Source: Parcubacteria bacterium C7867-005 (GTDB lineage: Bacteria > Patescibacteriota > Minisyncoccia > Phycocordibacterales > Zambryskibacteraceae). From it: a stretch of DNA of 64,000 bases. The stretch's first letter is position 1; each line of letters begins with the position of its first letter. Position numbers and translations under genes: made by a program. Of the stretch, positions 19,517-39,361 are shown one piece after another. The stretch is taken from positions 156,848 to 220,847 of the forward strand of contig LFCO01000001.1 in the NCBI GenBank assembly GCA_001189165.1. The letters run 5' to 3'. Under the pieces are notes generated by a model. The model was not told the origin of the DNA and did no database searches. It saw only the letters and a program-made list of their open reading frames with translations.

Positions 19517-19855
19517 ATGATAGTGAAAGAGGAAGTTCGTACGGACATGGTGATCGAGTGCACCACGGATGACACTGGGAGATGGCACTTCAGGAAGGCT
19601 GGTGAGGAGGTCGAGGTGACCTTCTGCTCTGGCGCAATCGTCTTCGTCGAAGGTATTCCCGAAGAATCCAAGAAGAGGTTCGCGGTTCGTTCGGACAGGC
19701 CCAGGGCCACCGTCGAAGTTCGTGGTGACAAGATCAGCTTCGCCTTCGGCAGGCAGACAAGGGCACCGTACATCCCCACCCGTGAGAAACACCGCGTGAT
19801 GATCACCGTGAGGTCCGTCCCCCACAAGGGACACAAGGAACGCCAAACCGCCTGA
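19517..19855 (+). CDS. GC-rich hypothetical protein (cassette 3, 112 aa)
   Basis: GAGG upstream of ATG 19517; MIVKEEVRTDMVIECTTDD...; promoter and terminator flank it; the two antisense ORFs were rejected (no signals). Confidence 0.55.
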   Translation: MIVKEEVRTDMVIECTTDDTGRWHFRKAGEEVEVTFCSGAIVFVEGIPEESKKRFAVRSDRPRATVEVRGDKISFAFGRQTRAPYIPTREKHRVMITVRSVPHKGHKERQTA

Positions 19856-19880
19856 GAGGGCGGTTATATTATTTTGCTTT
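19846..19880 (+). terminator. rho-independent terminator (AACCGCC/GGCGGTT stem, stop codon in loop, then ATATTATTTTGCTTTTTT)
   Basis: 7-bp stem 19846-19852/19859-19865 and a T-run. Confidence 0.65.
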
Positions 19881-21594: not shown

Positions 21595-22266
21595 CTACCC
21601 CACCTCGCTTGCCATCTCTGGTTGGAGGATGTCGTTCCAAACTAGGAGCTTCCATTCTGGTTTACAAAACGGCCATTTTTTATAGGTACAGATAGTGAGA
21701 CCTGCATTTTCTATCGGATTTAGAAAACTCAATTTGTTGTATTCAGAAGCAGTGAGACTCTCCCCCATGAGCATGTAGGAGATGATCATCTTCAGAAAGA
21801 TATTGTGAGTAACCATGAGGATCCTTTTTTCCTTTCTCTGGCTGATATATTCGAGCAATGCCTTGGCCCTTTCCTTTAGATCAGCAAAATTTTCTTCATC
21901 TGAGTAGCGGAAATTATCTTTGTGGAACCCTTTGTCTATGAGGTCGATGATTTGTCGCACCTCTGATTCGTCTCCGTGGTGACCAATGATCTCTCTAGGA
22001 TTCCGCCTTTCTTTTAACAAATCACTATATTCGATGTCAGTGATCCCCAGTTCATGAGCGATGATGTCAGATGTTTCTTTGGTTCGCTCAAAGGGGCTGG
22101 ATATGAGGACTTGCGGTCGGCCTTTGTGTTTGGGGAACTTGCGAGCAGTAGCCAAGGCTTGCTCACGGCCCTTGTCTGTGAGTGCTCCTTCTGCCCCTTG
22201 CCTGATCCCTTGTGAATTCAAAACACTCTCACCATGTCTGACAAAATAGATAACCTTCGTAGCCAT
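21595..22266 (-). CDS. histidine phosphatase family protein (phosphoglycerate-mutase-like)
   Basis: N-terminal VIYFVRHGESVLNSQG (RHG catalytic motif) and downstream His. Confidence 0.85.
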   Translation of the reverse strand: MATKVIYFVRHGESVLNSQGIRQGAEGALTDKGREQALATARKFPKHKGRPQVLISSPFERTKETSDIIAHELGITDIEYSDLLKERRNPREIIGHHGDESEVRQIIDLIDKGFHKDNFRYSDEENFADLKERAKALLEYISQRKEKRILMVTHNIFLKMIISYMLMGESLTASEYNKLSFLNPIENAGLTICTYKKWPFCKPEWKLLVWNDILQPEMASEVG

Positions 22267-22315
22267 GAATTTAGTTTACTATACTGAAACCGTATTTATC
22301 TCAGAAATTAAATAC

Positions 22316-22344
22316 TTGACAAACACGCATAGTCGATGTAATCT
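22316..22344 (+). promoter_or_regulatory. sigma70-like promoter TTGACA-17-TAATCT for cassette 4
   Basis: -35 22316-22321, -10 22339-22344. Confidence 0.6.
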
Positions 22345-22397
22345 CGCACGAGAGTTTGCTCTGCCCGCACTTCCACCAACCACTCGTAGAGGGTCCA

Positions 22398-22709
22398 ATG
22401 GCGGCCAAGAAGAAGCCCATGAACGACGCGCGGAAGTCCGAAGTACTGATCAAGATCCTGAAGTCCATCCTTCTCGCGCAGTTGGAAGAGGAGGGTGATA
22501 ACCTGGCTGATGAAGCCACCAAGAAGATGGCTGAGCTGATCGTCGATGTGTCAGAACTAGCCGGCATCTCCTATGAGGATCTCATCGAGGTGGGGCGCCC
22601 TGTGTGCCACGACCTACTCGATGAACTCATCAGTAACGCGATGGAGATCCTCGGGGATCAGAAGGCCGAGAAGGCCACAGGGTCGACGGGCACGCAAGAA
22701 GGCCGGTGA
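22398..22709 (+). CDS. GC-rich acidic hypothetical protein (cassette 4, 103 aa)
   Basis: GAGGG upstream of ATG 22398; MAAKKKPMNDARKSEVLIKILKSILLAQLEEEGDN...; very high GC3; terminator at 22719. Confidence 0.55.
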   Translation: MAAKKKPMNDARKSEVLIKILKSILLAQLEEEGDNLADEATKKMAELIVDVSELAGISYEDLIEVGRPVCHDLLDELISNAMEILGDQKAEKATGSTGTQEGR

Positions 22710-22718
22710 AGTGGGCGC

Positions 22719-22752
22719 AGAGCTGTCAGACAACAGCTCTCTTTTAATTTAT
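22719..22752 (+). terminator. rho-independent terminator (AGAGCTGT/ACAGCTCT stem, loop CAGACA, then CTTTTAATTTAT)
   Basis: 8-bp stem 22719-22726/22733-22740. Confidence 0.7.
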
Positions 22753-22754
22753 AA

Positions 22755-22940
22755 CTAATCTTTGTGTTCGTGCTTTATGAACTTTACTCCGAGGTAGTAT
22801 GGCCAGATGATGATGGCCAAAACACCTTTCCAGAAGCTTAGTTTCAAGTAGCCGATAGTGAACAACCATCCGATCATCCACAAAGTACTCAACCCATCAT
22901 TACTCACGATAATATTATTCATTTCATTCATTCTATTCAT
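22755..22940 (-). CDS. small membrane protein (61 aa)
   Basis: Two hydrophobic segments (LWMIGWLFTIGYL, VLAIIIWPYYLGV); ORF only. Confidence 0.4.
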   Translation of the reverse strand: MNRMNEMNNIIVSNDGLSTLWMIGWLFTIGYLKLSFWKGVLAIIIWPYYLGVKFIKHEHKD

Positions 22941-22966
22941 ATAAGTAGTATATCAAATCATAAACC

Positions 22967-24229
22967 CTATCTCCAAATCCTAAAGTCGTCCATCCATTCT
23001 GATTGAGTCACCGGAGACCCTTGGTTAAATGTCGCTGGTGTTTTAAACAGATAGTATCCACCGCTGTTGTATGTGGCGATGTTCGTATGTGACCACTTTC
23101 GCTCACCGTCTATCCAGCCGTGGATAAATCCATCCAATGCATTCGGGGTTGAACTCTGCCTAGTATGAAAGGTGACTCTGTGCCAATTTCCATCTGCGAG
23201 CGTTTCAACGCTCACTGGACTACCCACATTCTGCTGATAAAGAGGATGGTCATAGTCAGAACCCATACCCAGAGTGTGGTTCTCGCTTATGAAATCAAAT
23301 CTCGAACCAGATTGTGCCCAGAGAAAAAACAGCTTTTTGGCATTACCACTGCACCCGCTCCTACCATTCCAATCGAAAGCAAACCCACTTTGGTAACGGA
23401 CGGAGTACTGTACGTATATCTCATTTGTGGGTGTGAAGGACCATTCGAGTAGCTTCGAATCATCCTGGCAATTACTTGAAGCCGACCAGTCGAACCTCAC
23501 TGCATTCGTCCCTCCTACACCTTGAGAATTATCCGCAAATATAGAATTCTCTCCGAGGGTGGTGTATGAACTCCTGATAGAGGCCGAACTTAGCTTCTGA
23601 TTAAAATTGTCGTACCAAAGAGATGTGTTCACCCCCGCTTGATACTGTGGTTCTGTGCTTGGTTGTGGTACTACAACTGGTGGGGTGATCACTGGAGCCG
23701 GGGCCACGGTGGTCGAAGTAGTGACAGTATTTGTGGTAACTTCCACTGGGAGAGGAGCTATGGTAGGTGCTTCAGGATTATTATTTGAAGAACGAGATGA
23801 TGAACCACCCCCACCAGAAGAGCTCCTTCTCACTGGAATCGTGGTGGCGACAATATTCAAACTATTTAATTTGGTTCTGGTCATTGGTCCGACGAAACCC
23901 GTATTTGATACATTGTTTGAGGATTGAAACTTCTTTACGGCAACTTCGGTGAGGTTCCCATAATATCCGAGGCCGATGTTCGGGGGCATGACCAAATACC
24001 CTTTAGAGATGAGGATTTGTTGCAGAGCAACCACTTGTGTGCCCGTCGATCCAACCCCCATATCATTTATTATATTTGCAGAAGACACGTTCAATACCTG
24101 CATGGCTTGTATTTGTTTTTGCAATAGCAGTAGCTGAGCTTGGAGTTCAGCTATGGTCGGTGTTTGGGCTCTAAGAGAAATTGGGATGAGAACAAGGAGA
24201 AGCAAGGGCAACAAACGCTTCATTGCCAT
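22967..24229 (-). CDS. secreted peptidoglycan-binding protein with Thr/Pro-rich linker and C-terminal beta-rich domain
   Basis: Signal peptide MAMKRLLPLLLLVLIPISLRAQ; PG_binding_1-like VALQQILISKGYLVMPPNIGLGYYGNLTEVAVKKFQ; linker SSSGGGGSSS...TTSTTVAPAPVITPPVVVP; C-terminal domain of about 230 aa of unknown function. Confidence 0.7.
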   Translation of the reverse strand: MAMKRLLPLLLLVLIPISLRAQTPTIAELQAQLLLLQKQIQAMQVLNVSSANIINDMGVGSTGTQVVALQQILISKGYLVMPPNIGLGYYGNLTEVAVKKFQSSNNVSNTGFVGPMTRTKLNSLNIVATTIPVRRSSSGGGGSSSRSSNNNPEAPTIAPLPVEVTTNTVTTSTTVAPAPVITPPVVVPQPSTEPQYQAGVNTSLWYDNFNQKLSSASIRSSYTTLGENSIFADNSQGVGGTNAVRFDWSASSNCQDDSKLLEWSFTPTNEIYVQYSVRYQSGFAFDWNGRSGCSGNAKKLFFLWAQSGSRFDFISENHTLGMGSDYDHPLYQQNVGSPVSVETLADGNWHRVTFHTRQSSTPNALDGFIHGWIDGERKWSHTNIATYNSGGYYLFKTPATFNQGSPVTQSEWMDDFRIWR

Positions 24230-26443: not shown

Positions 26444-27706
26444 CTAGATTCGAAAACCGCTTGATCGTAGTTTCCTGTGGTAAGTGATAGCGAACCGGTG
26501 CGCCTCAGAATTTGCAAGGAGGATCGACCTCCCCCATTTCTCTATTTTGCCCTTCTCTCCGATTATTTCTCTTGCTTTATGCTTTTCGTCTTTGACCACA
26601 GAGACGATTTCTATATTGAATCCTCTTTCTTTCAATTCTTCTTTAGCTGCATTTATCTGTGCAGTACTGCCATCAACCACGATGAGTTGTGGCAAATTCC
26701 ACTCCGCATGGCCGAGTCTCCTGCGGATCACTTCCCTTAGATTCTTCGTATCATCAACACCGACCCTGCCACCGACGCCTTTGATTTTGAATTTCCTGTA
26801 CTGACTCTTTTGCAGTTCATCATCCTCTACCACTACCATCACACCGACTGTATCAGACCCAGAGATATGGGCGATGTCATATGCCTCTATTCTAAACACA
26901 TTCTCATCATAAACCCGAGTTGAATCTCTCTTTATCAGAGCGACATCCTGAATATGGTCGAGCGAGTAGAGCGTTCTCTTGATCTTCTCTGCATCTTCAA
27001 ACCTCTCTTCTTTGGCGCAAAGCTTCATCTCTTTCTCTAATTCTTTGATCAAAGTTGTCTTTTCTCCATTGAAAAATAGTTCGAGGTGTTTGATTCTCTT
27101 TCTGTATTCTCTTTTGGATATGGCACCCGAGCAAACCCCGGGGCATAGACCGATTTGAGAGTTAAAGCATGGCTTTATTTTCGCTCCCATTTTCAATTCT
27201 TCTTTAGGAATACACTTGTCCCTGTATGGAAATAATTTACGAATAATTTTTAAAGCTTCTCGGAGCTCCCCACTGCTGGGGAAGGGTCCGAAGACTGATT
27301 TGATCTTATAATTCTTCGCAGTTTGCTCGAAGTGTTCTATGTTCCTAGAACGGATCACTAATACACGAGGGTAATCTTCGAGGGTGACGATAACTGAATT
27401 AAAACTCTTGTTGTCCTTCTCTATGGTGTTGTATGGGGGTAAGTGTTTTTTGATCTGGCCCGCTTCGAGCATCAGTGCTTCGAGGACGGATTGGGTTTCG
27501 GTGAACCTTATACTCGTCGCTCCTTCGACCATCTTCACTAACCTCGGTCCACGGGTTTTGATCAAATCCTTTGAAAAGTAGCTTTTGACCCTATCTTTCA
27601 AACTAGTGGCTTTGCCTATATAAAGTATTTCTTTTTTGGATCCAAGGAAAAAATACACACCTGGTGTGTCTGGGAGTTTGGCTTTCTGTAGTGCTTGACT
27701 ATTCAT
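26444..27706 (-). CDS. uvrC: excinuclease ABC subunit C (short form, no C-terminal HhH)
   Basis: GIY-YIG N-terminus PGVYFFLGSKKEILYIGKATSLKDRVKSYF, UvrBC-interacting and RNase-H-like endonuclease regions. Confidence 0.88.
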   Translation of the reverse strand: MNSQALQKAKLPDTPGVYFFLGSKKEILYIGKATSLKDRVKSYFSKDLIKTRGPRLVKMVEGATSIRFTETQSVLEALMLEAGQIKKHLPPYNTIEKDNKSFNSVIVTLEDYPRVLVIRSRNIEHFEQTAKNYKIKSVFGPFPSSGELREALKIIRKLFPYRDKCIPKEELKMGAKIKPCFNSQIGLCPGVCSGAISKREYRKRIKHLELFFNGEKTTLIKELEKEMKLCAKEERFEDAEKIKRTLYSLDHIQDVALIKRDSTRVYDENVFRIEAYDIAHISGSDTVGVMVVVEDDELQKSQYRKFKIKGVGGRVGVDDTKNLREVIRRRLGHAEWNLPQLIVVDGSTAQINAAKEELKERGFNIEIVSVVKDEKHKAREIIGEKGKIEKWGRSILLANSEAHRFAITYHRKLRSSGFRI

Positions 27707-27752
27707 ACAAATATGATACTATATTTTCAGGACCCGCACAAAGGAGAGGTAC

Positions 27753-27941
27753 ATGAAGCAAAGGACGTTAGCCGAAGACGCAACGAGTGGTAAGCCCAGG
27801 CTCGACACCATGACCCGAAGGAGAGCGGAAGCTGCACTTGATCGTGAGATCAGAACAGCATACTCCAACAAGCTTTCGGGCCACCCGACCTGGACACCCA
27901 TCAACTACCACGATGGTCGCGGTACGCCAGTGAGGCCCTAA
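27753..27941 (+). CDS. GC-rich small basic protein (cassette 6, 62 aa)
   Basis: AGGAGAGG 3 nt upstream of ATG 27753; MKQRTLAEDATSGKPRLDTMTRRRAEAALDREIRTAYSNKL...; terminator overlaps the uvrA stop. Confidence 0.5.
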   Translation: MKQRTLAEDATSGKPRLDTMTRRRAEAALDREIRTAYSNKLSGHPTWTPINYHDGRGTPVRP

Positions 27942-27942
27942 G

Positions 27943-27985
27943 GGAGTAGCAGAAATGCTACTCCTTCTTCCTTTTATTTTTCTTC
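27943..27985 (+). terminator. rho-independent terminator (9-bp stem GGAGTAGCA/TGCTACTCC, GAAA loop, then TTCTTCCTTTTATTTTTCTTC)
   Basis: Arms 27943-27951/27956-27964; the uvrA stop codon (27958-27960) lies in the 3' arm. Confidence 0.8.
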
Positions 27986-30615
27986 AAAATTTTTCTTAAA
28001 TATGTTCCGGTGTGTGTATCAGTATTTGCCACCTCCTCTGGTGTTCCCTTGGCTACCAATTTTCCACCACCGTCTCCACCTTCAGGACCGATGTCCAAAA
28101 CATAATCCGCACTTTTGACAAGATCGAGGTTATGCTCGATCACCACCACAGTGTTTCCTTTGTCTACTAATTTTTGCAAAATTTCTATAAGTTTCTTTAC
28201 ATCCTCATAATGTAGACCTATCGTGGGCTCATCCAAGATATACATAGTTTTTTGTACATGAGGACGATAGAGCTCTGAGGAGATCTTCACTCTCTGTGCT
28301 TCTCCACCTGAAAGAGTCGTAGCTGACTGCCCGAGCTTCAGATAACCCAGACCCACATCACTCATGGATTTTAATCTGTCATAGATTGCGGGGATGTCCT
28401 CAAAGAATCTGAGGGCTTCTTCTACTGTCATCTCCAACACTTGGAAGATATTTTTCTTTTTGTATTCGACTTCAAGGGTTTCTTTCATAAACCTCTTACC
28501 ACGACACACGTCACATGGTACATAGACAGTTGGGAGGAAATGCATCTCTACTTCGATCATCCCATTACCCTGACAAGTTTCGCACCTTCCCCCCTTTACA
28601 TTGAATGAGAATCTGTTTGCTTTCCAACCACGTGCACGTGCTTCGGATGATTCTGCAAAAAGGTCACGAATAAAAGTGAATGCCCCCGTATAGGTGGCTG
28701 GGTTTGAGCGTGGTGTACGACCAATCGGAGACTGGTCGATGAGTATCGCTCGACCGATGTATTCACTACCCGCAAAGGACTGTGCATTGTGTGTTTCTGC
28801 ACTCCTGTATCTACGATCGAGTCTGGCCTGAAGATTTTTATAAAGGATTTCGTAGATGAAAGAAGATTTACCCGATCCAGAGACGCCGGTGACAGCGACT
28901 AATCGTCCGAGAGGGATATCTACATTCAAATGTTTGATATTGAATATCTTCCCCGCGCGAATTTGAATACTGCCTTTTTCTGAGGATCTCCTTTCTTCTG
29001 GCACAGATATTTCACTCTCCTCTCGAAGATATGAGAGTGTCAGAGATTTTGAATCATTCTTCTTCGCGGTCAAAAGTGGCTCGAGGTAATCAGCGACGAC
29101 GACGTGTCCGCCGTGTATACCTGCTCCAGGACCAATATCTACGATATAATCCGAAGAATAAATTGTATCTTCGTCGTGCTCGACGATGAGAATGGTGTTA
29201 CCCAGATCACGCAAGTCGAGGAGGGTTTTGATCAATCTGTCATTATCCCTCGAGTGTAGACCGATAGTGGGTTCGTCGAGCACGTAGAGTGCCCCCACGA
29301 GCCCAGAACCAAGCTGGGAAGCGAGTCTAATACGCTGTGCTTCTCCACCTGAAAGTGTGTGGGCTCGTCTGTCCAGGGTCAAATAATCGATACCCACGTT
29401 TAACATGAATTCGAGTCTGGAAGCGATCTCTTTGATCACCACTCTGGAGATATTTTTCTCCCTGATGGTTAGTTTGATTTTCTTGAAAAACTCATCTGCC
29501 TCTTTGATCGATTGTGCTACAACTTCTACGATATTTTTTCCGCCAACCAAAACATGCAGAGCTTCTTCACGTAGTCGTTTTCCTTTACATTTTGGACATG
29601 GTGTACTGCCAAAAAGATATTTGGTACCTAAACCATTACACTCTGGACACGCGCCGTATGGAGAGTTAAACGAAAATAATCTAGGCTCTATCTCGGGGAA
29701 AGAAAAACCATCTTTCGGGCAAGCCCACTTTGCTGACATGAGAAACTCTTCTGATGTTTCTACGGGTTTTTTACCATCCACAGACATATCTCTAAAACGA
29801 ACCACTAGTAACCCGTCTGATTCATGGATAGATTTCTCTATAGACTCGGATAAGCGTTCGTTCGCAGTCTTTTCATCACTCTTGAATTCATTCAGACTGA
29901 TTGAATCCACTAATACACTGATGTTGTGTGCCTTCGTTTTGGTCAGCACAATCCTCTCTCGGAGTTTCTTGCGCTCACCGTCTACCAAAACTTCTGTGTA
30001 CCCCTTGCCCAAGAGATCATAGAGTAGTTGATAGTATTCACCCTTCCTGCCACGGACGATTGGCGAGAAGATCTCTACATAGATTGGTAAATTTATTTTC
30101 TTCCCATTTGTCTGTGGATTTTTTTCTGCTTTTTCATTGATTTTATCCAGTACAAAATTTTTGATCTCTTCGTTTGAAAGTTTTTTGATCTCTGTCCCAC
30201 AAACCAAACAATGCGGTCTGCCTACTCGGGCAAACAAAATACGAAGATAATCATAGATCTCAGTGATAGTGGCCACTGTAGAGCGAGGGTTATTCGAACG
30301 TGAGGTCTGATCGATAGAGATAGCCGGAGACAAACCGACTATTTCATCTACATCTGGTTTCTGCATCTGCTTTAAAAACTGTCTTGCATATGAAGAAAGA
30401 GATTCTACATATCTACGCTGACCTTCGGCAAAAATCGTGTCGAATGCCAAAGAGGATTTACCTGAGCCAGAAAGTCCGGTGAAAACGATCATTTTGCCAC
30501 GAGGCATCTCCACAGTGATGTTCTTCAGGTTGTGGGTACGCGCACCACGGACAATGATTATATCTTGGTTTGGTTGTTTTTTGTCTTTGGACATACAAAG
30601 ATGGCCCCGGGACAT
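27958..30615 (-). CDS. uvrA: excinuclease ABC subunit A
   Basis: 885 aa, two ABC ATPase modules ([16 protein letters not shown]; [15 protein letters not shown]), zinc-finger cysteines, [15 protein letters not shown] start. Confidence 0.95.
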
Positions 30616-30660
30616 GCCCTAGGGGTTAGATACGAACAAACTATATCATAAAAACCTGAT

Positions 30661-30689
30661 TTGACTATATGGTGGTTTTTATTTATGGT
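30661..30689 (+). promoter_or_regulatory. sigma70-like promoter TTGACT-17-TATGGT for cassette 7
   Basis: -35 30661-30666, -10 30684-30689. Confidence 0.55.
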
Positions 30690-30738
30690 AGTGAGAGGCC
30701 CCCGATGTACATCTGTCCACACATTCCGGAGACAGCGC

Positions 30739-31107
30739 ATGCAGCAACGTACGACCGACGCCGTGGAGCCCACCCAAGTTCGGAGTCAGACCCCCTGCCA
30801 CAGGACCACGATCAGGCTCGATGAGGTGGACACTGACCGCCTCACGAGAATGCTAGGCCACGAATTCCCTGACCCGAGGGTCCAGATCGCAAGCGCGTTC
30901 AACACCGACATCTCCGAGATCAGCGACGAACTCCTCGATCGGATCAACGCGGTGACCAACCACGTCGAGGCTCTCGGTCTCTTCGGAGTTCTGCGCAGGC
31001 ACTACTACGGCGAGAATGACATCAACGCCGTCGTGCGGTGTGTCGCCTGCTTCTGTCGGAAGCCCGCGCCAGAGCCCGCGACTGCTTCGGCCCCCATGGT
31101 GCACTAG
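30739..31107 (+). CDS. GC-rich hypothetical protein (cassette 7, 122 aa)
   Basis: GGAG upstream of ATG 30739; MQQRTTDAVEPTQVRSQTPCHRTTIRLDEVDTDRL...VVRCVACFCRKPAPEPATASAPMVH; terminator at 31129. Confidence 0.5.
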   Translation: MQQRTTDAVEPTQVRSQTPCHRTTIRLDEVDTDRLTRMLGHEFPDPRVQIASAFNTDISEISDELLDRINAVTNHVEALGLFGVLRRHYYGENDINAVVRCVACFCRKPAPEPATASAPMVH

Positions 31108-31128
31108 ACGAACGTCTACCACCTCCAC

Positions 31129-31160
31129 CTCCGCCCTCACAGGCGGAGTCTTATTTTTTA
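31129..31160 (+). terminator. rho-independent terminator (CTCCGCC/GGCGGAG stem, loop CTCACA, then TCTTATTTTTTATC)
   Basis: 7-bp arms 31129-31135/31142-31148; T-run overlaps the uvrB stop. Confidence 0.7.
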
Positions 31161-33214
31161 TCTTCTTTATCCAGTCGCTTTTCTAAGAGTCTGATCTCAT
31201 CTCGGATTATAGCTGCTGTCTCAAAGTCGAGATCTCTCACTGCGATTTCCATTTCTTCTCTTTTGGCTTTGATAAATTTCTTTGGATTTTTGTCGAAAAT
31301 CAACTCATCTGTTTCTAATAAAACATTTACAGCGTTGTGGTGCTCACGCTCAAGAGTGTCAGTGATGTCTTTGATTTTTTTCTTGATAGTGATCGGGGTG
31401 ATGCCGTGCTTTTTGTTATAAGCCATCTGTATCTCCCTTCTTCTTTTTGTCTCCCCCATCGCCCTCTCCATCGAGCCGGTGACTGTGTCTGCGTACAAAA
31501 TAACCTTACCTTCTACATTCCTCGCAGCACGACCAATAATCTGGATAAGGGAAGTCTCTGAGCGTAGGAAGCCCTCTTTGTCCGCATCGAGGATACCAAT
31601 AAAAGTAACCTCGGGTAAATCGAGTCCTTCTCGAAGCAAATTTACACCAACCAAACAATCAAAAACCCCTTTACGGAAATCTGTGAGGATCTCTATACGC
31701 TCGATGGTCTTGATCTCACTATGTAGATACCTCGCTTTGATTTTCTTTTCCTTTAGAAATTCGGATAAATCTTCTGCCATCTTCTTGGTGAGGGTGGTAG
31801 CGATCACCCGACCACCCTTTTTAATCGCTTTCTCAGTCTCATTTATAAAATCACTGATCTGTCCATCATAGTTTCCCTTACTCTGTATTGGTCGCACGGT
31901 CACTTCTGGATCGATGAGTCCTGTGGGCCTGATCACTTGCTCGACTACTTTCTTACTGTTTGCTTTCTCATAGACACTTGGTGTAGCTGAAGTGAAGATC
32001 ACCTGACCAATCCGCTTTTCAAATTCATCGAACATGAGTGGTCTATTGTCTTTGGCTGACGGGAGTCTGAATCCATGCTCAACCAATGTTTCTTTCCTTG
32101 ATCTGTCACCGGCAAACATCCCACCGATCTGAGGAATCGTGACGTGGGATTCATCTATGATCGTGAGGAAGTCTGCACTACCGTCTTTCTTGTGGGGGAA
32201 ATACGAGAGCAGTGTGTCTGGTGCCTCACCAACTTTTTTGCCAGAGAAATGCCTGGAATAATTTTCTATGCCGTTGCAGTAACCGACCTCACGAATGAGT
32301 GCGAGGTCGTATGATGTTCTCCTTTTTAATCTATCTGCTTCCAAAATTTTTCCGTCTTTTTTAAATTGTTCTAGCTGTTTGTCTAGCTCCAGCTTGATAC
32401 TCTGTATAGCCTTTTTCACCTGCTCTTCATCGGTGATGAAATGCTTTGCGGGGAAAAGATAGAAAACTTCTGGTTCACTGATCACCGTCCTCGACACTCC
32501 GTCTATACGCTTTATCGCGGAGATATGGCTGTCTTCTATCTCTATCCTATATATAGTCTTCTCTCCTGTGGGCATGATTTCTACTGCATTGCCGAGTGCT
32601 CTAAATGTTCCTGATTTGATATCCGAATTCGTACGAGAGAAATGGATATCGATCAGTTCTCTGATAAAATCCGCACGAGAGATCTTGTCTCCTTTAGAGA
32701 TTTTCATATTCACCTTCTCATATTCTTCTGGTGAACCTAAACCGTATATACAAGATACAGAGGCGACGATGATTACATCCTTTCTGGTTAAAAGAGCCTG
32801 GGTTGAAGCGTGCCTCAGCCTCTCGATCTCTTCGTTGATCATAGCTTCTTTTTCTATATAAGTATCCGTCACCGGCATATATGCTTCGGGCTGATAATAA
32901 TCGTAGTAAGAAACGAAGTAATGAACCGCATTGTCTGGGAAGAATTCTCTGTACTCTTGGGCGAGTTGTGCGGCCAGGGTTTTATTGTGAGCGATGACCA
33001 GAGTAGGTTTACCTATCTGCTCTATGACATTTGCGGCTGTGAAGGTTTTACCCGATCCGGTGACACCTAGGAGGGTTTGTTTGTCCAATCCATCTTTAAT
33101 ACCGGAGACGAGCTCCTTGATAGCTTTGGGCTGATCCCCCGCTGGTTTAAATTCATTTCTGATCTTAAAAACTGACATTTGTCGAATTATACTTTTTTCA
33201 AACCCCAAAAACAA
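31151..33214 (-). CDS. uvrB: excinuclease ABC subunit B
   Basis: FKPAGDQPKAIKELVSG, helicase motifs, C-terminal UVR domain. Likely real start MSVFKI at 33178, with TATAAT (33186-33191) 7 nt upstream and no SD, so possibly leaderless. Confidence 0.93.
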   Translation of the reverse strand: MFLGFEKSIIRQMSVFKIRNEFKPAGDQPKAIKELVSGIKDGLDKQTLLGVTGSGKTFTAANVIEQIGKPTLVIAHNKTLAAQLAQEYREFFPDNAVHYFVSYYDYYQPEAYMPVTDTYIEKEAMINEEIERLRHASTQALLTRKDVIIVASVSCIYGLGSPEEYEKVNMKISKGDKISRADFIRELIDIHFSRTNSDIKSGTFRALGNAVEIMPTGEKTIYRIEIEDSHISAIKRIDGVSRTVISEPEVFYLFPAKHFITDEEQVKKAIQSIKLELDKQLEQFKKDGKILEADRLKRRTSYDLALIREVGYCNGIENYSRHFSGKKVGEAPDTLLSYFPHKKDGSADFLTIIDESHVTIPQIGGMFAGDRSRKETLVEHGFRLPSAKDNRPLMFDEFEKRIGQVIFTSATPSVYEKANSKKVVEQVIRPTGLIDPEVTVRPIQSKGNYDGQISDFINETEKAIKKGGRVIATTLTKKMAEDLSEFLKEKKIKARYLHSEIKTIERIEILTDFRKGVFDCLVGVNLLREGLDLPEVTFIGILDADKEGFLRSETSLIQIIGRAARNVEGKVILYADTVTGSMERAMGETKRRREIQMAYNKKHGITPITIKKKIKDITDTLEREHHNAVNVLLETDELIFDKNPKKFIKAKREEMEIAVRDLDFETAAIIRDEIRLLEKRLDKEDKK

Positions 33215-35070: not shown

Positions 35071-35095
35071 GTTCGGGGGTCTCTTATTATCTCTT
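35058..35095 (+). terminator. rho-independent terminator (9-bp stem ACCCCCGAA/TTCGGGGGT, loop GTAAG, then CTCTTATTATCTCTT)
   Basis: Arms 35058-35066/35072-35080; overlaps the mreB stop (35087-35089). Confidence 0.75.
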
Positions 35096-36103
35096 GGCGA
35101 TTATAGATTTTTTATAAACATCCAAATGATCTAGAGCGACGCCAGTCCCTTTGGCCACACAAAAGATAGCTTCTTTGGCAAGCTGGGCCTTAACACCTGT
35201 TCGCCTAAAAACAAGTTCAGGTAAATGTCGGAGTTGGGAAGATCCACCGGTCATAATTATTCCTCGGTCTATAATATCTGAAGAAAGTTCTGGAGGGGTT
35301 TCTTGGAGTACATCTTTGATCGCTTTGACCATCTCTCGGAGTTCTTTGCTTATCGCTTTAGTGATCTCATTAGTTTTAATTTCCACTGTACGAGGAAGGC
35401 CCAGGATAAAATCCCTACCTTTCACCGACATGGTGAGCTCTTCGTCCATAGGTACAGCAGATCCAACTTTAATTTTTATATCTTCTGCGGTCTTATCACC
35501 GATAGCGAGGTTGTATGTTTTCTTTATATAGTCTGCTATAGCAGCGTCTATCTTGTTCCCCGCCACCTTAACCGAAGTAGATGCGACGATGCCGCCAAGG
35601 GATATGACAGCGACATCAGTAGTACCACCGCCTATATCTACAATCATGTGCCCCGCTGCCTCTTGGATGGGTATACCCGCACCAATAGCAGCAAGTATTG
35701 GTTCCTTAACCACATAGGCATTTTTTGCACCAGCCTTTATCGCCGCCTCCACAACTGCACGACGCTCAGTGGAAGTAACCCCCGCAGGCACAGAGATCAA
35801 CACATCAGGTTTAAAAATGTTCCACTTGCCCATCGCTTTGTTTATGTAGTAGCGGAGCATTGCCTCAGTCACTCTATAATCAGCAATCACCCCATCCTTC
35901 ATAGGTCTATAAGCGATGATGTTCTCAGGTGTACGACCTATCATGGTCTTAGCCTCTGCTCCTATGGCCAAAATTTTGTTGTCATCTTCTGATACAGCAA
36001 CCACTGAAGGCTCGTTTAGGACAATGCCTATTCCAGGTACAAAGACCAAAATGTTGGTTGTGCCCAAATCTATACCGAGTTTCCTCACTCCAAAGAATTT
36101 CAT
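35087..36103 (-). CDS. mreB: rod shape-determining protein MreB
   Basis: LGIDLGTTNILVFV..., DIGGGTTDVAVISLGG, IIMTGGSSQLRHL actin-fold motifs. Confidence 0.95.
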   Translation of the reverse strand: MKFFGVRKLGIDLGTTNILVFVPGIGIVLNEPSVVAVSEDDNKILAIGAEAKTMIGRTPENIIAYRPMKDGVIADYRVTEAMLRYYINKAMGKWNIFKPDVLISVPAGVTSTERRAVVEAAIKAGAKNAYVVKEPILAAIGAGIPIQEAAGHMIVDIGGGTTDVAVISLGGIVASTSVKVAGNKIDAAIADYIKKTYNLAIGDKTAEDIKIKVGSAVPMDEELTMSVKGRDFILGLPRTVEIKTNEITKAISKELREMVKAIKDVLQETPPELSSDIIDRGIIMTGGSSQLRHLPELVFRRTGVKAQLAKEAIFCVAKGTGVALDHLDVYKKSIIAKR

Positions 36104-36184
36104 ATTTCTATAATACTGTTTAAGGTCTAATTTACAAACAAAGGAAAAACGGGTATTTCATGACCCCTAAGATATAATGTCCTT

Positions 36185-38101
36185 ATGCCGACTAAAGACC
36201 AGCCAGAAAAGTCATATGTGGTAGAGGTTATACCCATAGTCAGAGGGGTAGCCAAATCTACACTTTCATACTTTACCCGAGAGAATTTACCTACTGGATC
36301 TTTTGTACGAATAGAGGTACGCAAGTCAACTGTACTTGGCCTGGTCATCAAAAGCTTTGATGCGCACAGCATCAAGACTGATTTAAAAAGATCTTCATAT
36401 TCCCTGAAAAAGCTTTCGCTTAGTGAAAAGGGGGCGAGGCTCTCTCCATCTTTTATCCGTGCAGCAGAATCATGTGCCAAATATTATGCGACAACTATTG
36501 GGAGTGTGCTGGGTATTCTACTCCCTAAATTTTTCTTAGATTCACCACAACTACTAGGATCTGAATTTTCTCCAAACACCAGATCTCTTACGATCAAAGA
36601 ACCACTTCTCATACAATTCTCTGATCAAGAAAGATACATGGAATACATGAGCATCGTCCGTGAATCTTTTGCGAAATCCAAATCAGTTCTTTTCATAGCC
36701 CCCACTGCAGAAGATGCATTGAGGGCTCACGACATACTGTCCAAAGGAATCAAAGAATACGCTTATACCACTGGAGATAAAGGTCAGAAGGCAGTAAAAG
36801 ATATTTTATTGAAAATTCAAAAAGAAAAACACCCAATTCTCTTTGTCACAACTCCAGCGTTTATAGCTTTTGATAGGCCAGATATGGAAACTGTCATTTT
36901 CGAAAAAGAAAACTCAAGGACATACAAAGCCATGAGCAGACCTTTCGTTGACCTCAGAATCTTTATAGAATTCTTGGCCAAGGAATCAGGTAAGACTCTA
37001 ATATTCGGAGATTCTGTGCTATCCCTAAATTCAATCTGGAAAGAAAAACAAGGTAAATTTGCAGAGCTATCACCACTAAAATGGAAACTCAGTCATGGGG
37101 TGAATGCTAGGTTGGTGGATATGAAGCCGGCGGTTATTGTCGGAGAAGAAAAAGAAAAAAGGTTCAAGATATTTTCAAATGAATTAGTAGAGATGATCGA
37201 GAAGGCTCAGAAGGAAAAACGTAAAGTATTTTTGTTTGGCGCTCGCAAAGGACTCTCCCCTTCAACTATTTGCAAAGATTGTGGTTCGGTGTTGGTCTGT
37301 CAAAATTGTTCGGCTCCAATCGTACTTCACAAAATGGAAGAAGGTAGGATTTATATGTGTCATGCTTGTGGTGCCAAAAGGCCGTCAGAAACCAGGTGTG
37401 ATAAATGCAATAGCTGGGACCTCACTCCACTCGGTATAGGTATAGACCGTATAAAGGAGGAGTTGGAGAGATTATTTCCAGACATACCTATATCTGTATT
37501 GGACAAGGATCACGCCAAAACAAAATCAAAAGCAGAAGCAATAGCCAAAAAATTCGCCAGTGACAAGGGCGGAATACTTATAGGCACAGAATTCGCACTA
37601 TCTTATATAGAGAAGGTTCCTTATGTAGCTATTGTCTCCCTTGATTCTCTATTCTCTATTCCTGACTTCGGTATCAATGAACGAATCTTTTATTTGACCA
37701 GTCGCTTACTTGAGAAGGCAGAGTTTGAATCGATTGTGCAGACCAGAAATATTGGCAAGATAATCCTGCAAGACGCTACAAAAGGGGATGTTTTGGAATT
37801 CTATAGAAAAGAGGTAAAAGAAAGAGAAGAGCTCAACTATCCACCCTTTTCTCTTTTTATAAAAGTTAGAATCGAATGCAAACAAAGTGAAATAGGGAAA
37901 AAAGCTAACCTACTACAAACAATGTTTAGTGATTTTAAACCAGATTTTATCAAGGAAAGAGGTATGAGGAGCGGCAAAATAGCCCTTTCTATGATCCTTC
38001 GTATAAAAAGAGATGCCTGGCCCGACCCAGAGCTTTGTGACAAACTACTTTTGCTAACACCTGATTTTTTGATTAAAGTAGACCCTGAGAGCATATTATG
38101 A
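36185..38101 (+). CDS. priA: primosomal protein N' (PriA)-like, helicase motifs I/II degenerate
   Basis: PriA-type Cys-rich region CKDCGSVLVCQNCSAPIVLHKMEEGRIYMCHACGAKRPSETRCDKCNS; N-terminal 3'-DNA-binding-like domain; expected Walker A (GxGKT) is AKSKS and DEEH is EKEN. Confidence 0.75.
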   Translation: MPTKDQPEKSYVVEVIPIVRGVAKSTLSYFTRENLPTGSFVRIEVRKSTVLGLVIKSFDAHSIKTDLKRSSYSLKKLSLSEKGARLSPSFIRAAESCAKYYATTIGSVLGILLPKFFLDSPQLLGSEFSPNTRSLTIKEPLLIQFSDQERYMEYMSIVRESFAKSKSVLFIAPTAEDALRAHDILSKGIKEYAYTTGDKGQKAVKDILLKIQKEKHPILFVTTPAFIAFDRPDMETVIFEKENSRTYKAMSRPFVDLRIFIEFLAKESGKTLIFGDSVLSLNSIWKEKQGKFAELSPLKWKLSHGVNARLVDMKPAVIVGEEKEKRFKIFSNELVEMIEKAQKEKRKVFLFGARKGLSPSTICKDCGSVLVCQNCSAPIVLHKMEEGRIYMCHACGAKRPSETRCDKCNSWDLTPLGIGIDRIKEELERLFPDIPISVLDKDHAKTKSKAEAIAKKFASDKGGILIGTEFALSYIEKVPYVAIVSLDSLFSIPDFGINERIFYLTSRLLEKAEFESIVQTRNIGKIILQDATKGDVLEFYRKEVKEREELNYPPFSLFIKVRIECKQSEIGKKANLLQTMFSDFKPDFIKERGMRSGKIALSMILRIKRDAWPDPELCDKLLLLTPDFLIKVDPESIL

Positions 38102-38634
38102 AGAAAATCATTCTAAATAGAGACGCACCAGCGTTGAGAAAGATAGCGTTGGAGGTGCCAATAAAAGCAATCGGCACAAAAAAAATTCAAAACATCTTGA
38201 ATAAGATGAAGGGCGCCCTAGACAAGGAAGATGATGGGGTTGCCATAGCTGCGCCACAAATCGGAGAGAGTTTGAGAATATTTGTAGTGAGTGGCAGGAC
38301 ACTGTCTTTAATAAAGAATGGGGATGCGGTTATCAAAGATAAAAACAAGTCAGATGATATTGTTTTTATTAATCCTGTTTTGACCAAACTATCCAAATCT
38401 AAGAAAAAAATGGAGGAAGGATGTCTCTCTGTCCGATGGCTGTACGGCCAGGTAGAGAGAAGCGAGAAGGCTACTATAGAAGCATATGATGAGAATGGAA
38501 AAAAATTTATAAAGGGAGCATCTGGACTCATGGCTCAGATATTCCAGCATGAAGTAGATCACTTAAACGGAGTACTGTTTATAGACAAAGCAACAAACGT
38601 AGAGAATATTCCACCAAAAAAAGAAAATGAATAG
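38098..38634 (+). CDS. def: peptide deformylase
   Basis: GVAIAAPQIG (motif 1), EGCLSV (motif 2), QHEVDHLNG (motif 3); start overlaps the priA stop (ATGA). Confidence 0.9.
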   Translation: MKKIILNRDAPALRKIALEVPIKAIGTKKIQNILNKMKGALDKEDDGVAIAAPQIGESLRIFVVSGRTLSLIKNGDAVIKDKNKSDDIVFINPVLTKLSKSKKKMEEGCLSVRWLYGQVERSEKATIEAYDENGKKFIKGASGLMAQIFQHEVDHLNGVLFIDKATNVENIPPKKENE

Positions 38635-39361
38635 AATAAAATTCGTATTTTTTGGATCTTCAGAGTTCTCAAATATCGTTTTGAATACCCTCAAAGAAAA
38701 TGGCTTTGAGCCCGTGCTGTCTGTGACAAACGCCAAGAAGCCATTAAACCGAGCGGAGCTGGAGTCTCTTGGTGCAGATGTTTTTATAGTTGCTTCATTT
38801 GGTAAAATCCTACCTGACTGGCTGATCTATATGCCCAAATTTAAAACTCTGAATGTCCACCCATCGCTTCTACCCAAACTCAGAGGTCCTTCTCCTATCC
38901 AAGGAGCAATACTTTCTGGAGAACGGATGGGGGTGACGATACAACAAATAAACGAACGGGTGGACGCTGGTCCTATCCTCACCCAAAAAGAAGTGGTCCT
39001 CGAGCAGAACCTTGGTTACAGAGAAATAGAGAAGATACTCGCGCATGAAGGAGCTCTCTTGCTCAAAGAGATATTGACTAAGCTAGTAAACGGTGATGTG
39101 CAGGGTGTAGAGCAGGATCACAGCGAAGCAACCTACACTAAGATGATCACCAAAAATGACGCAGATGTATCAAATGACACGGATGATGTGGCCCTGCGCA
39201 AGGTACGTGCATATGAAGTGTGGCCCCGTGCTAGGAAAGGTGATTTGATCATCACTAAAGCTCATATTGAAGACGGTAAATTCGTCATCGACCGCATAAT
39301 ACCTCCTGGTAAAAAAGAGATGGATTTCAAAGATTATTTGCGAGGCAATAAAATAGACTAA
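38627..39361 (+). CDS. fmt: methionyl-tRNA formyltransferase (compact)
   Basis: Formyl-transferase N-domain NVHPSLLPKLRGPSPIQGAIL (SLLP motif) plus C-terminal domain; 8-nt overlap with def. Confidence 0.85.
   Translation: MNRIKFVFFGSSEFSNIVLNTLKENGFEPVLSVTNAKKPLNRAELESLGADVFIVASFGKILPDWLIYMPKFKTLNVHPSLLPKLRGPSPIQGAILSGERMGVTIQQINERVDAGPILTQKEVVLEQNLGYREIEKILAHEGALLLKEILTKLVNGDVQGVEQDHSEATYTKMITKNDADVSNDTDDVALRKVRAYEVWPRARKGDLIITKAHIEDGKFVIDRIIPPGKKEMDFKDYLRGNKID

What the first reader, a model, noticed from the sequence alone, without database searches (positions are those of the whole stretch)
36185..38101. PriA-like protein with intact zinc-binding region but degenerate helicase motifs I and II
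The Cys-rich CRR and N-terminal DNA-binding region identify PriA. At the aligned position of the Walker A (GxGKT) the sequence is FAKSKSVLFIAPT, and the DExH box reads FEKEN. A PriA that cannot hydrolyse ATP would be a loader or scaffold rather than a helicase. This is unusual and relevant to replication restart in reduced genomes. It is translationally coupled to def-fmt.
Basis: partly seen in the sequence, partly recalled or inferred. Interest (0 to 1): 0.55.

Follow-up and report, generated by a model that had tools for sequence, protein, structure and literature searches.

The report
Motor-less PriA in Parcubacteria
This gene encodes a full-length PriA replication-restart protein that keeps its DNA-fork-binding and zinc-binding parts but has lost every ATP-motor motif, a state conserved across hundreds of Parcubacteria species; it resembles the known Deinococcus PriA "pseudohelicase" and is a second, more extreme lineage of it.

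Summary
The ORF at 36185-38101 (+, 638 aa) is real and is a PriA homologue. The evidence is the Pfam 3'BD and CRR hits, TIGR00595 at E=1e-62, hhalign 99.8% to E. coli PriA, and an AF2 model (pLDDT 88.6) that matches only PriA structures strongly (TM about 0.7).

- Motif I is QFSDQERY, with R150 at the place of E. coli K230.
- Motif II is EKEN in place of DEEH.
- Motif III is GDSVL in place of GSATP.
- Motif VI (GRAGR) is deleted.
- The winged-helix domain is absent.

The degenerate state is a clade trait. It holds in all 78 full-length GTDB species representatives examined (332 matched) and in all 149 aligned cluster representatives. The replacement residues are themselves conserved, so this is not a pseudogene.

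The mreB<>priA-def-fmt gene order is conserved, and priA-def-fmt matches canonical priA in Bacillus. The priA/def ATGA overlap is confirmed.

The best reading is an ATP-independent scaffold that recognises forks and recruits the replicative helicase, as in D. radiodurans PriA (Lopper 2015) and E. coli priA300. I found no paper describing this for CPR. It is a new member of a known kind, of moderate interest.

The parts
36185..38101 (+). priA-like ORF, 638 aa (PriA pseudohelicase), stop codon included
   Evidence: ORF list. TIGR00595 E=1e-62. hhalign 99.8% to E. coli PriA. AF2 model plus Foldseek hits to PriA structures at TM about 0.7.
36215..36526 (+). 3' DNA-binding domain (3'BD), residues 11-114
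   Evidence: Pfam PF17764 above its cutoff. L27, Y29 and F30 are invariant in the family and align with E. coli F16-D17-Y18-L19.
36527..36601 (+). Short, poorly conserved linker (residues 115-139) where E. coli PriA has its roughly 95-residue winged-helix domain; the WH domain is absent
   Evidence: Alignment gap. Lowest conservation of any segment. The E. coli PriA delta-WH structure 6dcr is among the best structural matches, TM 0.72.
36602..37174 (+). RecA-like lobe 1 (residues 140-330) with degenerate motifs I, Ia, II and III
   Evidence: The lobe is as conserved as the other domains, with 18 positions at 90% or more.
36614..36646 (+). Pseudo-Walker A, QFSDQERYMEY (residues 144-154). R150 sits at the E. 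coli K230 position, acidic residues replace the glycines, and there is no P-loop.
   Evidence: hhalign. The position is Arg in 148 of 149 representatives. In the AF2 model a strand at 141-144 is followed by a helix from 147, leaving a 2-residue loop.
36668..36706 (+).
36899..36913 (+). Pseudo-motif II, FEKEN (residues 239-243). E240-K241-E242-N243 aligns with E. coli D320-E321-E322-H323.
   Evidence: The family consensus is [ED][RK]E[SN].
37004..37024 (+). Pseudo-motif III, FGDSVLS (residues 274-280), versus E. coli LGSATPA
   Evidence: D276 is conserved at 90% or more.
37271..37417 (+). Cys-rich region (residues 363-411) with four CxxC pairs, giving two predicted zinc sites, inserted in lobe 2
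   Evidence: Pfam PF18319 E=1e-4. All 8 Cys are invariant.
37421..37840 (+). RecA-like lobe 2, C-terminal part (residues 413-552). It keeps the PriA-specific DSLFSIPDFGINER motif but has lost motif VI.
37697..37720 (+). Site of the 5-residue deletion that removes motif VI (E. coli QVAGRAGRAGK aligns with query RL-----LEKA)
   Evidence: The deletion is present in every family member examined.
37841..38098 (+). C-terminal domain (residues 553-638), with conserved YPPF, W612-P613 and a VDPES tail
   Evidence: Confidently modelled.
38098..38634 (+). def (peptide deformylase); its ATG overlaps the priA TGA (ATGA)
   Evidence: Pfam PF01327 E=7e-41. Sequence. A def-like ORF lies downstream in 69 of 80 related loci.
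38627..39361 (+). fmt (methionyl-tRNA formyltransferase, short 244-aa form), overlapping def by 8 nt
   Evidence: Pfam PF00551 E=8e-27. Sequence.
35087..36103 (-). mreB, transcribed divergently from priA; a conserved neighbour
   Evidence: Pfam PF06723 E=2e-132. Found upstream and divergent in 65 of 81 loci.

Best explanation
This is the Parcubacterial orthologue of the replication-restart protein PriA, and it has become a pseudohelicase. It keeps the PriA architecture: the 3'BD, two RecA-like lobes, a two-zinc Cys-rich region inserted in lobe 2, and the C-terminal domain. It has lost the winged-helix domain and every residue needed to bind and hydrolyse ATP.

The specific losses are:
- The P-loop is replaced by a short acidic turn followed by an invariant Arg.
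- DEEH has become E-K/R-E-N/S.
- GSATP has become GD[ST]xL.
- The motif VI arginine fingers are deleted.

Inferred mechanism: the protein recognises abandoned forks and D-loops without using energy. [quoted passage not shown] The lobes, CRR and CTD would bind lagging-strand template ssDNA. The protein would then act as a platform that recruits the replicative helicase DnaB, directly or through an unidentified adaptor or loader. It would not unwind the lagging-strand arm itself.

It is co-expressed with def-fmt from an ancestral priA-def-fmt operon.

Shown: homology, fold, loss of the motifs, conservation across the clade, and gene order. Inferred: lack of ATPase activity, fork binding, and helicase recruitment.
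For: Identity as PriA:
- Pfam, NCBIfam and PDB hits.
- hhalign 99.8% over 521 columns.
- AF2 model with pLDDT 88.6 and pTM 0.88. Its only strong PDB matches are PriA structures, at E=1e-25 to 1e-35 and TM 0.66-0.73. Other SF2 helicases come in at E about 1e-8 and TM about 0.3.

Loss of the motor:
- Alignments agree on motifs I, II, III and VI.
- None of 267 family proteins has GxGK[ST] at the homologous site, and no GK[ST] is conserved at any position.
- The model has a 2-residue loop where the P-loop should be.

Functional protein, not decay:
- The ORFs are intact and full length in 78 species representatives, out of 332 GTDB species matched.
- They are also intact in 150 representatives at E<=1e-112.
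- Lobe 1 is as conserved as the DNA-binding domains. Conserved positions include Q144, R150, Y154, R159, E242, P253 and D276.

Orthology:
- The mreB<>priA-def-fmt<hpf order is conserved in 61-75 of 81 loci.
- Bacillus velezensis, with canonical GVTGSGKT and DEEH, has coaBC-priA-def-fmt.
- Four family members still carry DEEH, which fits descent from a true helicase.

Mechanistic precedent:
- D. radiodurans PriA has the same K-to-R change, has no ATPase or helicase activity, and binds ssDNA, fork DNA and DnaB (PMC4504706).
- E. coli K230R/K230A PriA supports primosome assembly and DnaB loading (PMC5778457; PMC10175261).
- In the E. coli cryo-EM structure, fork recognition uses the 3'BD, CTD, HD1, HD2 and CRR, all of which are retained here.
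Against: - No biochemistry exists for this family. Fork binding, lack of ATPase activity and DnaB binding are all inferred.
- The WH domain, which contacts the parental duplex in E. coli, is missing, so fork specificity may differ.
- The 3'-end pocket is only partly conserved: E. coli F16-D17-Y18 becomes L27-S28-Y29.
- The E. coli SSB-tail and PriB contact residues are not recognisably kept.
- No replication partner gene sits in the conserved neighbourhood.
- I could not check whether the same genomes also carry a canonical PriA, RecG or another helicase that supplies the unwinding. None is present in the 64 kb window.
- TIGR00595 scores 212.4, below the 230.35 equivalog cutoff.
Confidence: 0.7

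Rival explanations
1. It is a neo-functionalised PriA-like paralogue, or a repurposed orthologue, whose job is no longer replication restart. Possible roles include DNA-structure binding or regulation, initiation at the origin, or something tied to def-fmt and translation. Restart would then be handled by another helicase encoded elsewhere in the genome.
For: - The replacement motifs are strongly conserved, which shows selection for something other than ATP hydrolysis.
- The gene is tightly coupled to def-fmt.
- The WH domain is lost.
- The rest of the genome could not be inspected.
Against: - priA-def-fmt is also the gene order of canonical priA in Bacillus, so the linkage is inherited and not new.
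- All DNA-binding modules of PriA are retained, with invariant zinc ligands.
- The family HMM scores canonical Bacillus PriA at 192 bits and E. coli PriA at 160 bits.
- ATPase-dead PriA is known to work in restart (PMC4504706, PMC5778457).
- PriA is described as the one restart protein conserved across bacterial phyla (PMC5778457).
Confidence: 0.15
2. It is still an active ATPase and helicase, using non-canonical residues or a shifted or second nucleotide site.
For: - An invariant Arg (R150) sits at the Walker lysine position.
- The query has an incidental SGKT at residues 268-271.
- A weak second nucleotide site has been proposed for E. coli PriA (PMC5778457).
Against: - The glycine-rich loop is absent and is replaced by acidic residues. 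The model leaves only a 2-residue loop.
- The catalytic Glu of motif II is Arg or Lys in most members.
- The motif VI arginine fingers are deleted in all members.
- K230R alone abolishes ATPase activity in E. coli PriA (PMC4504706, PMC5778457).
- The SGKT occurs in 1 of 149 representatives, and it precedes the motif III strand rather than strand 1.
Confidence: 0.04
3. It is a decaying, non-functional relic of priA in a reduced genome.
For: - All catalytic motifs are lost.
- CPR genomes are small.
- NCBI labels many homologues 'hypothetical protein'.
Against: - The ORFs are intact and about 600-690 aa in hundreds of species at 33-63% identity.
- There are 58 invariant columns, including all 8 Cys.
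- The pseudo-motifs are themselves conserved.
- The fold is predicted with confidence.
- The operon position is conserved.
Confidence: 0.02

Closest known systems
Deinococcus radiodurans / Deinococcus-Thermus PriA pseudohelicase (Lopper, Boone & Morrow 2015, PMC4504706)
   Same: [quoted passage not shown] Here R150 is Arg in 148 of 149 representatives.
- The CRR and DNA-binding architecture are retained.
- The organisms have no described PriB, PriC or DnaT.
- The likely role is an ATP-independent fork-binding platform that contacts DnaB.
   Different: - It comes from a different phylum (Patescibacteria/Parcubacteria).
- The degeneration goes much further. The whole glycine-rich P-loop is gone rather than only GKT becoming GRT. 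Motif III is changed, motif VI is deleted, and the WH domain is absent.
- There is no biochemistry for this family.
- No Deinococcus sequence was available in the tools, so I could not test whether the two losses share an origin.
Canonical PriA (E. coli / K. pneumoniae structures 4NL4, 6DGD, 8FAK; Bacillus PriA)
   Same: - The domain order is 3'BD, lobe 1, lobe 2 with the CRR inserted, then CTD.
- The same zinc ligands are present.
- PriA-specific motifs are kept: NRRG becomes ARKG, PDFR..ER becomes PDFG..ER, and LPPW becomes YPPF.
- The priA-def-fmt gene order matches Bacillus.
- Structural TM-score is about 0.7.
   Different: - It has no Walker A, DExH, SAT or motif VI.
- It has no WH domain, so it resembles the engineered E. 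coli delta-WH protein 6DCR.
- It scores below the TIGR00595 equivalog cutoff.
- The PriB contact residues (E. coli D438, S481, T482, H483) and the SSB pocket are not recognisably conserved.
E. coli priA300 (K230R) and K230A engineered ATPase-dead PriA
   Same: The Walker lysine is changed to Arg. This is the functional model for a PriA that assembles a primosome without ATPase, helicase or translocase activity (PMC5778457, PMC10175261).
   Different: Those are laboratory point mutants in an otherwise intact motor, and they depend on PriB and DnaT. Here the loss is natural, ancient, spread over many motifs, and found in organisms with no known PriB or DnaT.
Actinobacterial PriA (NCBIfam PRK14873 type; e.g. 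Tsukamurella WP_068739079.1, M. tuberculosis Rv1402 'PriA helicase loader')
   Same: By sequence it also lacks Walker A (QALPGEDW), DExH (WDDGD) and GRAGR. Rv1402 is reported as essential in M. tuberculosis, which has no DnaC, DnaT, PriB or PriC (PMC5694481).
   Different: It is only distantly related to this family. The family HMM scores Tsukamurella at 35 bits, against 192 bits for Bacillus PriA, so the degeneration is probably independent. The replacement residues differ: Trp rather than Arg sits at the K230 position.

Membership tests
PriA (primosomal protein N' / replication restart protein) | N-terminal 3' DNA-binding domain (3'BD) | tested here: met
   Pfam PF17764 over residues 25-114, 25.2 bits against a 22.7 cutoff. 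It aligns with the E. coli 3'BD.
PriA (primosomal protein N' / replication restart protein) | Cys-rich region with four CxxC pairs (two zinc sites) inserted in helicase lobe 2 | tested here: met
   Eight Cys at 363/366, 372/375, 392/395 and 405/408, invariant in 73 family members and conserved at 90% or more in 149 representatives. Pfam PF18319 gives E=1e-4, at 22.6 bits against a 26 cutoff.
PriA (primosomal protein N' / replication restart protein) | Overall PriA fold: two RecA-like lobes plus a C-terminal domain | tested here: met
   AF2 model with pLDDT 88.6 and pTM 0.88. Foldseek gives 8fak_H E=3.5e-35 TM 0.70, 6dcr_A TM 0.72 and 4nl4 TM 0.73. The next fold class comes in at E about 1e-8 and TM about 0.3.
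PriA (primosomal protein N' / replication restart protein) | SF2 ATPase/helicase motifs I (GxGKT), II (DExH), III (SAT) and VI (QxxGRxGR) | tested here: not met
   Motif I is QFSDQERY, motif II is EKEN, motif III is GDSVL and motif VI is deleted. The same holds in all family members examined.
PriA (primosomal protein N' / replication restart protein) | Winged-helix domain between the 3'BD and the helicase core (present in E. coli and Bacillus PriA, though probably not in every PriA) | tested here: not met
   A gap of roughly 95 residues relative to E. coli. Residues 115-139 form a short, variable linker.
PriA (primosomal protein N' / replication restart protein) | Score at or above the NCBIfam TIGR00595 equivalog cutoff | tested here: not met
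   212.4 bits against a 230.35 cutoff, at E=1e-62. Many homologues are named 'hypothetical protein' at NCBI.
PriA (primosomal protein N' / replication restart protein) | Orthologous genomic position (priA-def-fmt, as in Bacillota) | tested here: met
   The window has priA-def-fmt with overlapping codons. A def-like ORF lies downstream in 69 of 80 related loci. B. velezensis has coaBC-priA-def-fmt-rsmB.
PriA pseudohelicase (Deinococcus-Thermus type) | A PriA homologue with non-consensus Walker A and B, including Lys-to-Arg at the Walker lysine | tested here: met
   R150 aligns with K230. The position is Arg in 148 of 149 representatives. Motif II is degenerate.
PriA pseudohelicase (Deinococcus-Thermus type) | No ATP hydrolysis and no duplex unwinding in vitro | not testable with these tools
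   This needs purified protein. The sequence strongly predicts it.
PriA pseudohelicase (Deinococcus-Thermus type) | Retained binding to ssDNA and fork DNA, and physical interaction with cognate DnaB | not testable with these tools
   Only the retention of the DNA-binding domains could be shown.
PriA pseudohelicase (Deinococcus-Thermus type) | Common descent with the Deinococcus-Thermus proteins | not tested
   No Deinococcus or Thermus PriA sequence could be obtained from the available collections.

The most novel reading that the evidence does not exclude
Loss of the PriA motor may be an ancient, class-wide trait of Paceibacteria/Parcubacteria. In this reading the former ATP cleft has been rebuilt into a conserved charged 'latch' that holds the two RecA lobes in one fixed, DNA-binding-competent conformation. 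The latch would comprise the acidic pseudo-P-loop with invariant R150, an Arg or Lys at the catalytic-Glu position, and D276.

Combined with Deinococcus-Thermus and the actinobacterial PriA seen here, this would mean motor-less PriA has arisen repeatedly in lineages with no described PriB, PriC or DnaT. The core role of PriA would then be a structure-specific platform for loading DnaB, with helicase activity as an optional extra.
Probability: 0.4. Interest if true: 0.6.

Novelty: new member of a known kind. Interest (0 to 1): 0.45.

Why it matters
Reviews describe PriA as the only replication-restart protein conserved across bacterial phyla, and they say its helicase activity is conserved 'except in Deinococcus'. 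This family shows that a large, uncultivated radiation, covering hundreds of Parcubacteria species, runs on a PriA with no motor at all. I also noticed an actinobacterial PriA in the same state.

That strengthens the view that fork recognition and helicase recruitment are the essential PriA functions, and unwinding is not. It also gives a natural, minimal, WH-less and ATP-independent PriA for structural and biochemical work.

It flags an annotation problem as well. The public name of this very protein says 'superfamily II helicase', while PGAP leaves most homologues as 'hypothetical protein'.

Finally, it bears on how CPR bacteria with genomes of about 0.6-1 Mb restart replication, and with which helicase loader.

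Tried and rejected
- A regex search for GxGK[ST] over 267 family proteins found four incidental hits, all at non-homologous positions.
- A column-wise GK[ST] count peaks at 8 of 149. The query's own SGKT (residues 268-271) is unique to it and sits before the motif III strand. Rejected.

2. A second priA or recG in the window.
- The only P-loop ORFs are a YchF-like GTPase, UvrA, UvrB and a TypA/LepA-like GTPase.

3. A partner gene in the neighbourhood.
- I clustered ORFs from 81 loci. The recurrent neighbours include mreB, def, fmt, hpf, uvrB and tgt.
- No replication gene is among them.

4. Pseudogene or relic. Rejected on conservation.

5. A specific relationship to the actinobacterial PriA type.
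- The family HMM scores Tsukamurella at 35 bits, against 192 bits for Bacillus.
- NCBIfam PRK14873 models score at most 60 bits, against 212 bits for TIGR00595. Rejected.

6. Sequence comparison with Deinococcus-Thermus PriA.
- No sequence was obtainable. A tblastn of E. coli PriA against PLSDB returned 78 records. Only 60 were listed and none of those is Deinococcus or Thermus.

7. Literature on CPR or Patescibacteria PriA.
- Four searches found nothing that describes this feature.
- The one Patescibacteria paper that mentions priA concerns a neighbouring novel gene in phylum UBP6.

9. Model coordinates are not exposed, so I could not inspect the proposed salt-bridge latch in the former ATP site.

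10. The promoter scan found no sigma-70-type consensus promoter for priA.
Full report
**1. The observation**

The window carries one long ORF at exactly the stated coordinates, 36185..38101 on the + strand, encoding 638 aa.

It is a PriA homologue by every test I ran:
- Pfam finds the PriA 3' DNA-binding domain at residues 25-114, above the curated cutoff. It also finds the PriA Cys-rich zinc ribbon at residues 372-400, at E=1e-4.
- NCBIfam TIGR00595 (priA) matches at E=1e-62. The score is 212 bits, below the 230-bit equivalog cutoff.
- phmmer against the PDB finds only the PriA chains of K. pneumoniae and E. coli at convincing E-values, 1e-26 to 1e-29.
- An identical protein is in NCBI, from a Parcubacteria MAG. 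It is named 'primosomal protein N' (replication factor Y) (superfamily II helicase)'.

**2. The motifs**

I took E. coli PriA from MG1655 and aligned it with the query and its relatives in three ways:
- MAFFT with 120 close homologues.
- MAFFT with 78 species-representative homologues and with 149 cluster representatives.
- hhalign of a 73-sequence family profile against E. coli PriA, which gave probability 99.8%, E=1.4e-28 and 521 aligned columns.

All three agree on these points:
- The Walker A segment of E. coli, G224-VTGSGKT-231, corresponds to query Q144-FSDQERY-151. R150 sits at the position of K230.
- DEEH (D320-H323) corresponds to E240-K241-E242-N243.
- LGSATPA corresponds to FGDSVLS.
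- Motif V, GTQMLAKGHHFP, corresponds to GTEFALSY.
- Motif VI, QVAGRAGRAGK, is removed by a 5-residue deletion.

It aligns with E. coli LAQGKQALVMVPE, which is the end of the first helix plus the motif Ia strand.

Two further results support the corrected placement:
- The TIGR00595 local alignment starts at Y154 = model position 14, immediately after the Walker A of the model.
- The AF2 model has strand 141-144 and a helix starting at 147. That leaves a two-residue loop where a P-loop would need six or seven residues.

- No family protein has GxGK[ST] at a homologous place.
- No aligned column carries GK[ST] in more than 8 of 149 representatives.
- The query's own SGKT at residues 268-271 is unique to it and lies before the motif III strand.

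**3. Fold and domains**

AlphaFold2 with the family alignment gives a confident model, with mean pLDDT 88.6 and pTM 0.88.

Foldseek against the PDB returns the nine PriA chains as the only strong matches, at E=3.5e-35 to 1.8e-25 and TM 0.66-0.73. Other SF2 helicases (Brr2, Mfd, DEAD-box proteins) follow at E about 1e-8 and TM about 0.3.

One of the best matches is the engineered E. coli PriA winged-helix deletion protein, 6dcr (TM 0.72). That fits the alignment, in which the roughly 95 residues of the E. coli WH domain are replaced by a short, poorly conserved linker at residues 115-139.

The architecture is therefore 3'BD, then pseudo-lobe 1, then lobe 2 with the CRR inserted, then the CTD, with no WH domain.

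**4. A clade trait under selection, not an accident**

The family is large:
- The closest 120 database clusters are 42-63% identical, 600-650 aa long, and all from Parcubacteria/Patescibacteria.
- A scan of one genome per GTDB species found 332 species with a relative. The best 80, at 34-60% identity, include Zambryskibacteria, Campbellbacteria, Kaiserbacteria, Paceibacteria and 'Parcubacteria group' MAGs.
- An exhaustive HMMER search of 1.84 billion representatives gave 2030 clusters at E<=1e-30. The top 150 are all full-length matches at E<=1e-112.
- Canonical Bacillus PriA would score 5e-31 on that scale and E. coli PriA 6e-22. The family therefore comprises between 150 and about 2000 clusters at 50% identity.

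Every member examined shares the degenerate state:
- The K230 position is Arg in 148 of 149 representatives, and it is preceded by Asp or Glu.
- Motif II reads [ED][RK]E[SN].
- Motif III reads GD[ST]xL.
- Motif VI is always deleted.

The degenerate lobe is not drifting. Its mean conservation equals that of the 3'BD and lobe 2, and 18 of its positions are conserved at 90% or more. These include Q144, R150, Y154, R159, E242, P253 and D276. All eight zinc ligands are invariant.

Four members still read DEEH at motif II while lacking Walker A. This is a trace of descent from a true helicase.

**5. Genomic context**

- priA overlaps def by ATGA, and def overlaps fmt by 8 nt. Pfam confirms def, fmt, the divergent upstream mreB, and the downstream hpf.
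- Across 81 loci, mreB lies divergently upstream in 65, def and fmt downstream in 75, and hpf in 61.
- The ATGA overlap itself recurs in 17 of 75 loci. In 42 of 75 the gap is 30 nt or less.
- Bacillus velezensis, whose PriA has canonical GVTGSGKT and DEEH, has coaBC-priA-def-fmt-rsmB.
- The linkage to def-fmt is therefore inherited from a canonical priA locus. It supports orthology, and it does not point to a translation-related function.
- No replication partner gene is a conserved neighbour.
- The 64 kb window holds no other PriA- or RecG-like helicase. Its only P-loop ORFs are a YchF-like GTPase, UvrA, UvrB and a TypA/LepA-like GTPase.

**6. Mechanism**

Without a P-loop, without the catalytic Glu and without the arginine fingers, ATP-driven translocation or unwinding is not credible. 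In E. coli PriA, K230R alone abolishes ATPase, helicase and translocase activity (PMC5778457; PMC4504706).

What remains is the set of domains that recognises forks in the E. coli PriA/PriB/fork cryo-EM structure. There the 3'BD and CTD bind the leading-strand duplex and its 3' end. HD1, HD2, the CRR and the CTD bind lagging-strand ssDNA (PMC10175261).

ATPase-dead PriA is functional in two documented cases:
- priA300 cells are nearly wild type, and K230A PriA is used in DnaB-loading assays.
- D. radiodurans PriA is a natural pseudohelicase that binds ssDNA, forks and DnaB.

I therefore propose that this protein is an ATP-independent fork-recognition platform that recruits the replicative helicase, probably on forks that already expose lagging-strand ssDNA. 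That step is inference. So is the idea that the conserved charged residues of the former ATP site form a latch between the lobes, because model coordinates could not be inspected.

**7. Comparison with what is known, and novelty**

The kind, a PriA pseudohelicase, is published for Deinococcus-Thermus (Lopper et al. 2015). The 2018 review states that helicase activity is conserved 'except in Deinococcus'. Four full-text searches found no description of this for CPR, Patescibacteria or Parcubacteria.

The present family shares the K-to-R change but is more extreme. It has no glycine-rich loop, motif III is changed, motif VI is deleted, and the WH domain is absent.

While collecting canonical PriAs I found that the annotated PriA of Tsukamurella tyrosinosolvens (Actinomycetota) also lacks Walker A (QALPGEDW), DExH (WDDGD) and GRAGR. 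The Parcubacterial family HMM scores it at only 35 bits, against 192 for Bacillus and 160 for E. coli PriA. The two degenerations are therefore probably independent.

Motor-less PriA thus seems to be recurrent. That lowers the surprise of this single case and raises the general point.

I file it as a new member of a known kind. It meets the PriA tests for 3'BD, CRR, fold and gene position. It fails the tests for the ATPase motifs, the WH domain and the TIGR00595 cutoff.

**8. Limits**

- I could not inspect the rest of this genome, or any complete Paceibacteria genome, for a second PriA or RecG, or for the helicase loader.
- I could not obtain a Deinococcus or Thermus PriA sequence, so shared versus independent origin is untested.
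- I could not locate the taxonomic boundary of the trait within CPR.
- The AFDB fold library was unavailable.
- All functional statements beyond homology, fold, motif state, conservation and gene order are inferences.

Noticed in passing
L083:2440-4431 (Tsukamurella tyrosinosolvens NZ_LR134460.1, WP_068739079.1): This actinobacterial protein, annotated 'primosomal protein N'' (663 aa, in the order coaBC-metK-priA), also has no Walker A. It reads VWQALPGEDWAARL where E. coli has LLAGVTGSGKTEVY. Motif II is WDDGD and there is no GRAGR motif VI. By sequence, natural PriA pseudohelicases therefore also occur in Actinomycetota. The TB literature calls Rv1402 an essential 'PriA helicase loader' without noting this.
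   Followed up: partly
P0046, P0055, P0059, P0172 (family members): Four members of the Parcubacterial family still read DEEH at motif II while lacking Walker A and motif VI. They may be intermediates or reversions in the decay of the motor.
   Followed up: partly
window 38627-39361 (+): The fmt gene encodes only 244 aa, compared with 317 aa in B. velezensis. Pfam detects only the N-terminal formyltransferase domain, so the C-terminal tRNA-binding domain appears truncated or too diverged to detect.
   Followed up: no
window 36104-36218: The consensus scan finds no promoter for priA. A perfect TATAAT at 36173-36178 ends 6 nt before the ATG at 36185, and no Shine-Dalgarno sequence is visible, so the mRNA may be leaderless. 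Most homologues start at the position of query residues 11-12, where an in-frame GTG (V12, 36218) could be an alternative start.
   Followed up: partly
window 26444-33214 (-): A UvrC-like ORF (26444-27706, 420 aa), uvrA (27958-30615) and uvrB (31151-33214) lie together on the minus strand. The UvrC-like ORF has GIY-YIG, UVR and RNase H-like domains but is short for a UvrC, and no C-terminal HhH region was detected.
   Followed up: no
H60: CP144833.1 110572-110970 (Candidatus Stammera capleta, 297 kb record): E. coli PriA matches only residues 232-364, at 29% identity, in this extremely reduced insect-symbiont genome. This may be a remnant or a heavily truncated priA.
   Followed up: no
window 18001-20000 and 22001-24000: These segments have higher G+C (0.50 and 0.47) than the window average of about 0.42. 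The first overlaps a YchF-like GTPase gene and several short ORFs. I did not look into the cause.
   Followed up: no
window 62083-62658 (+): A 191-aa ORF with RNase H-superfamily and PolB-exonuclease-like Pfam hits (PF13482, PF10108). It looks like a stand-alone 3'-5' exonuclease-like protein.
   Followed up: no
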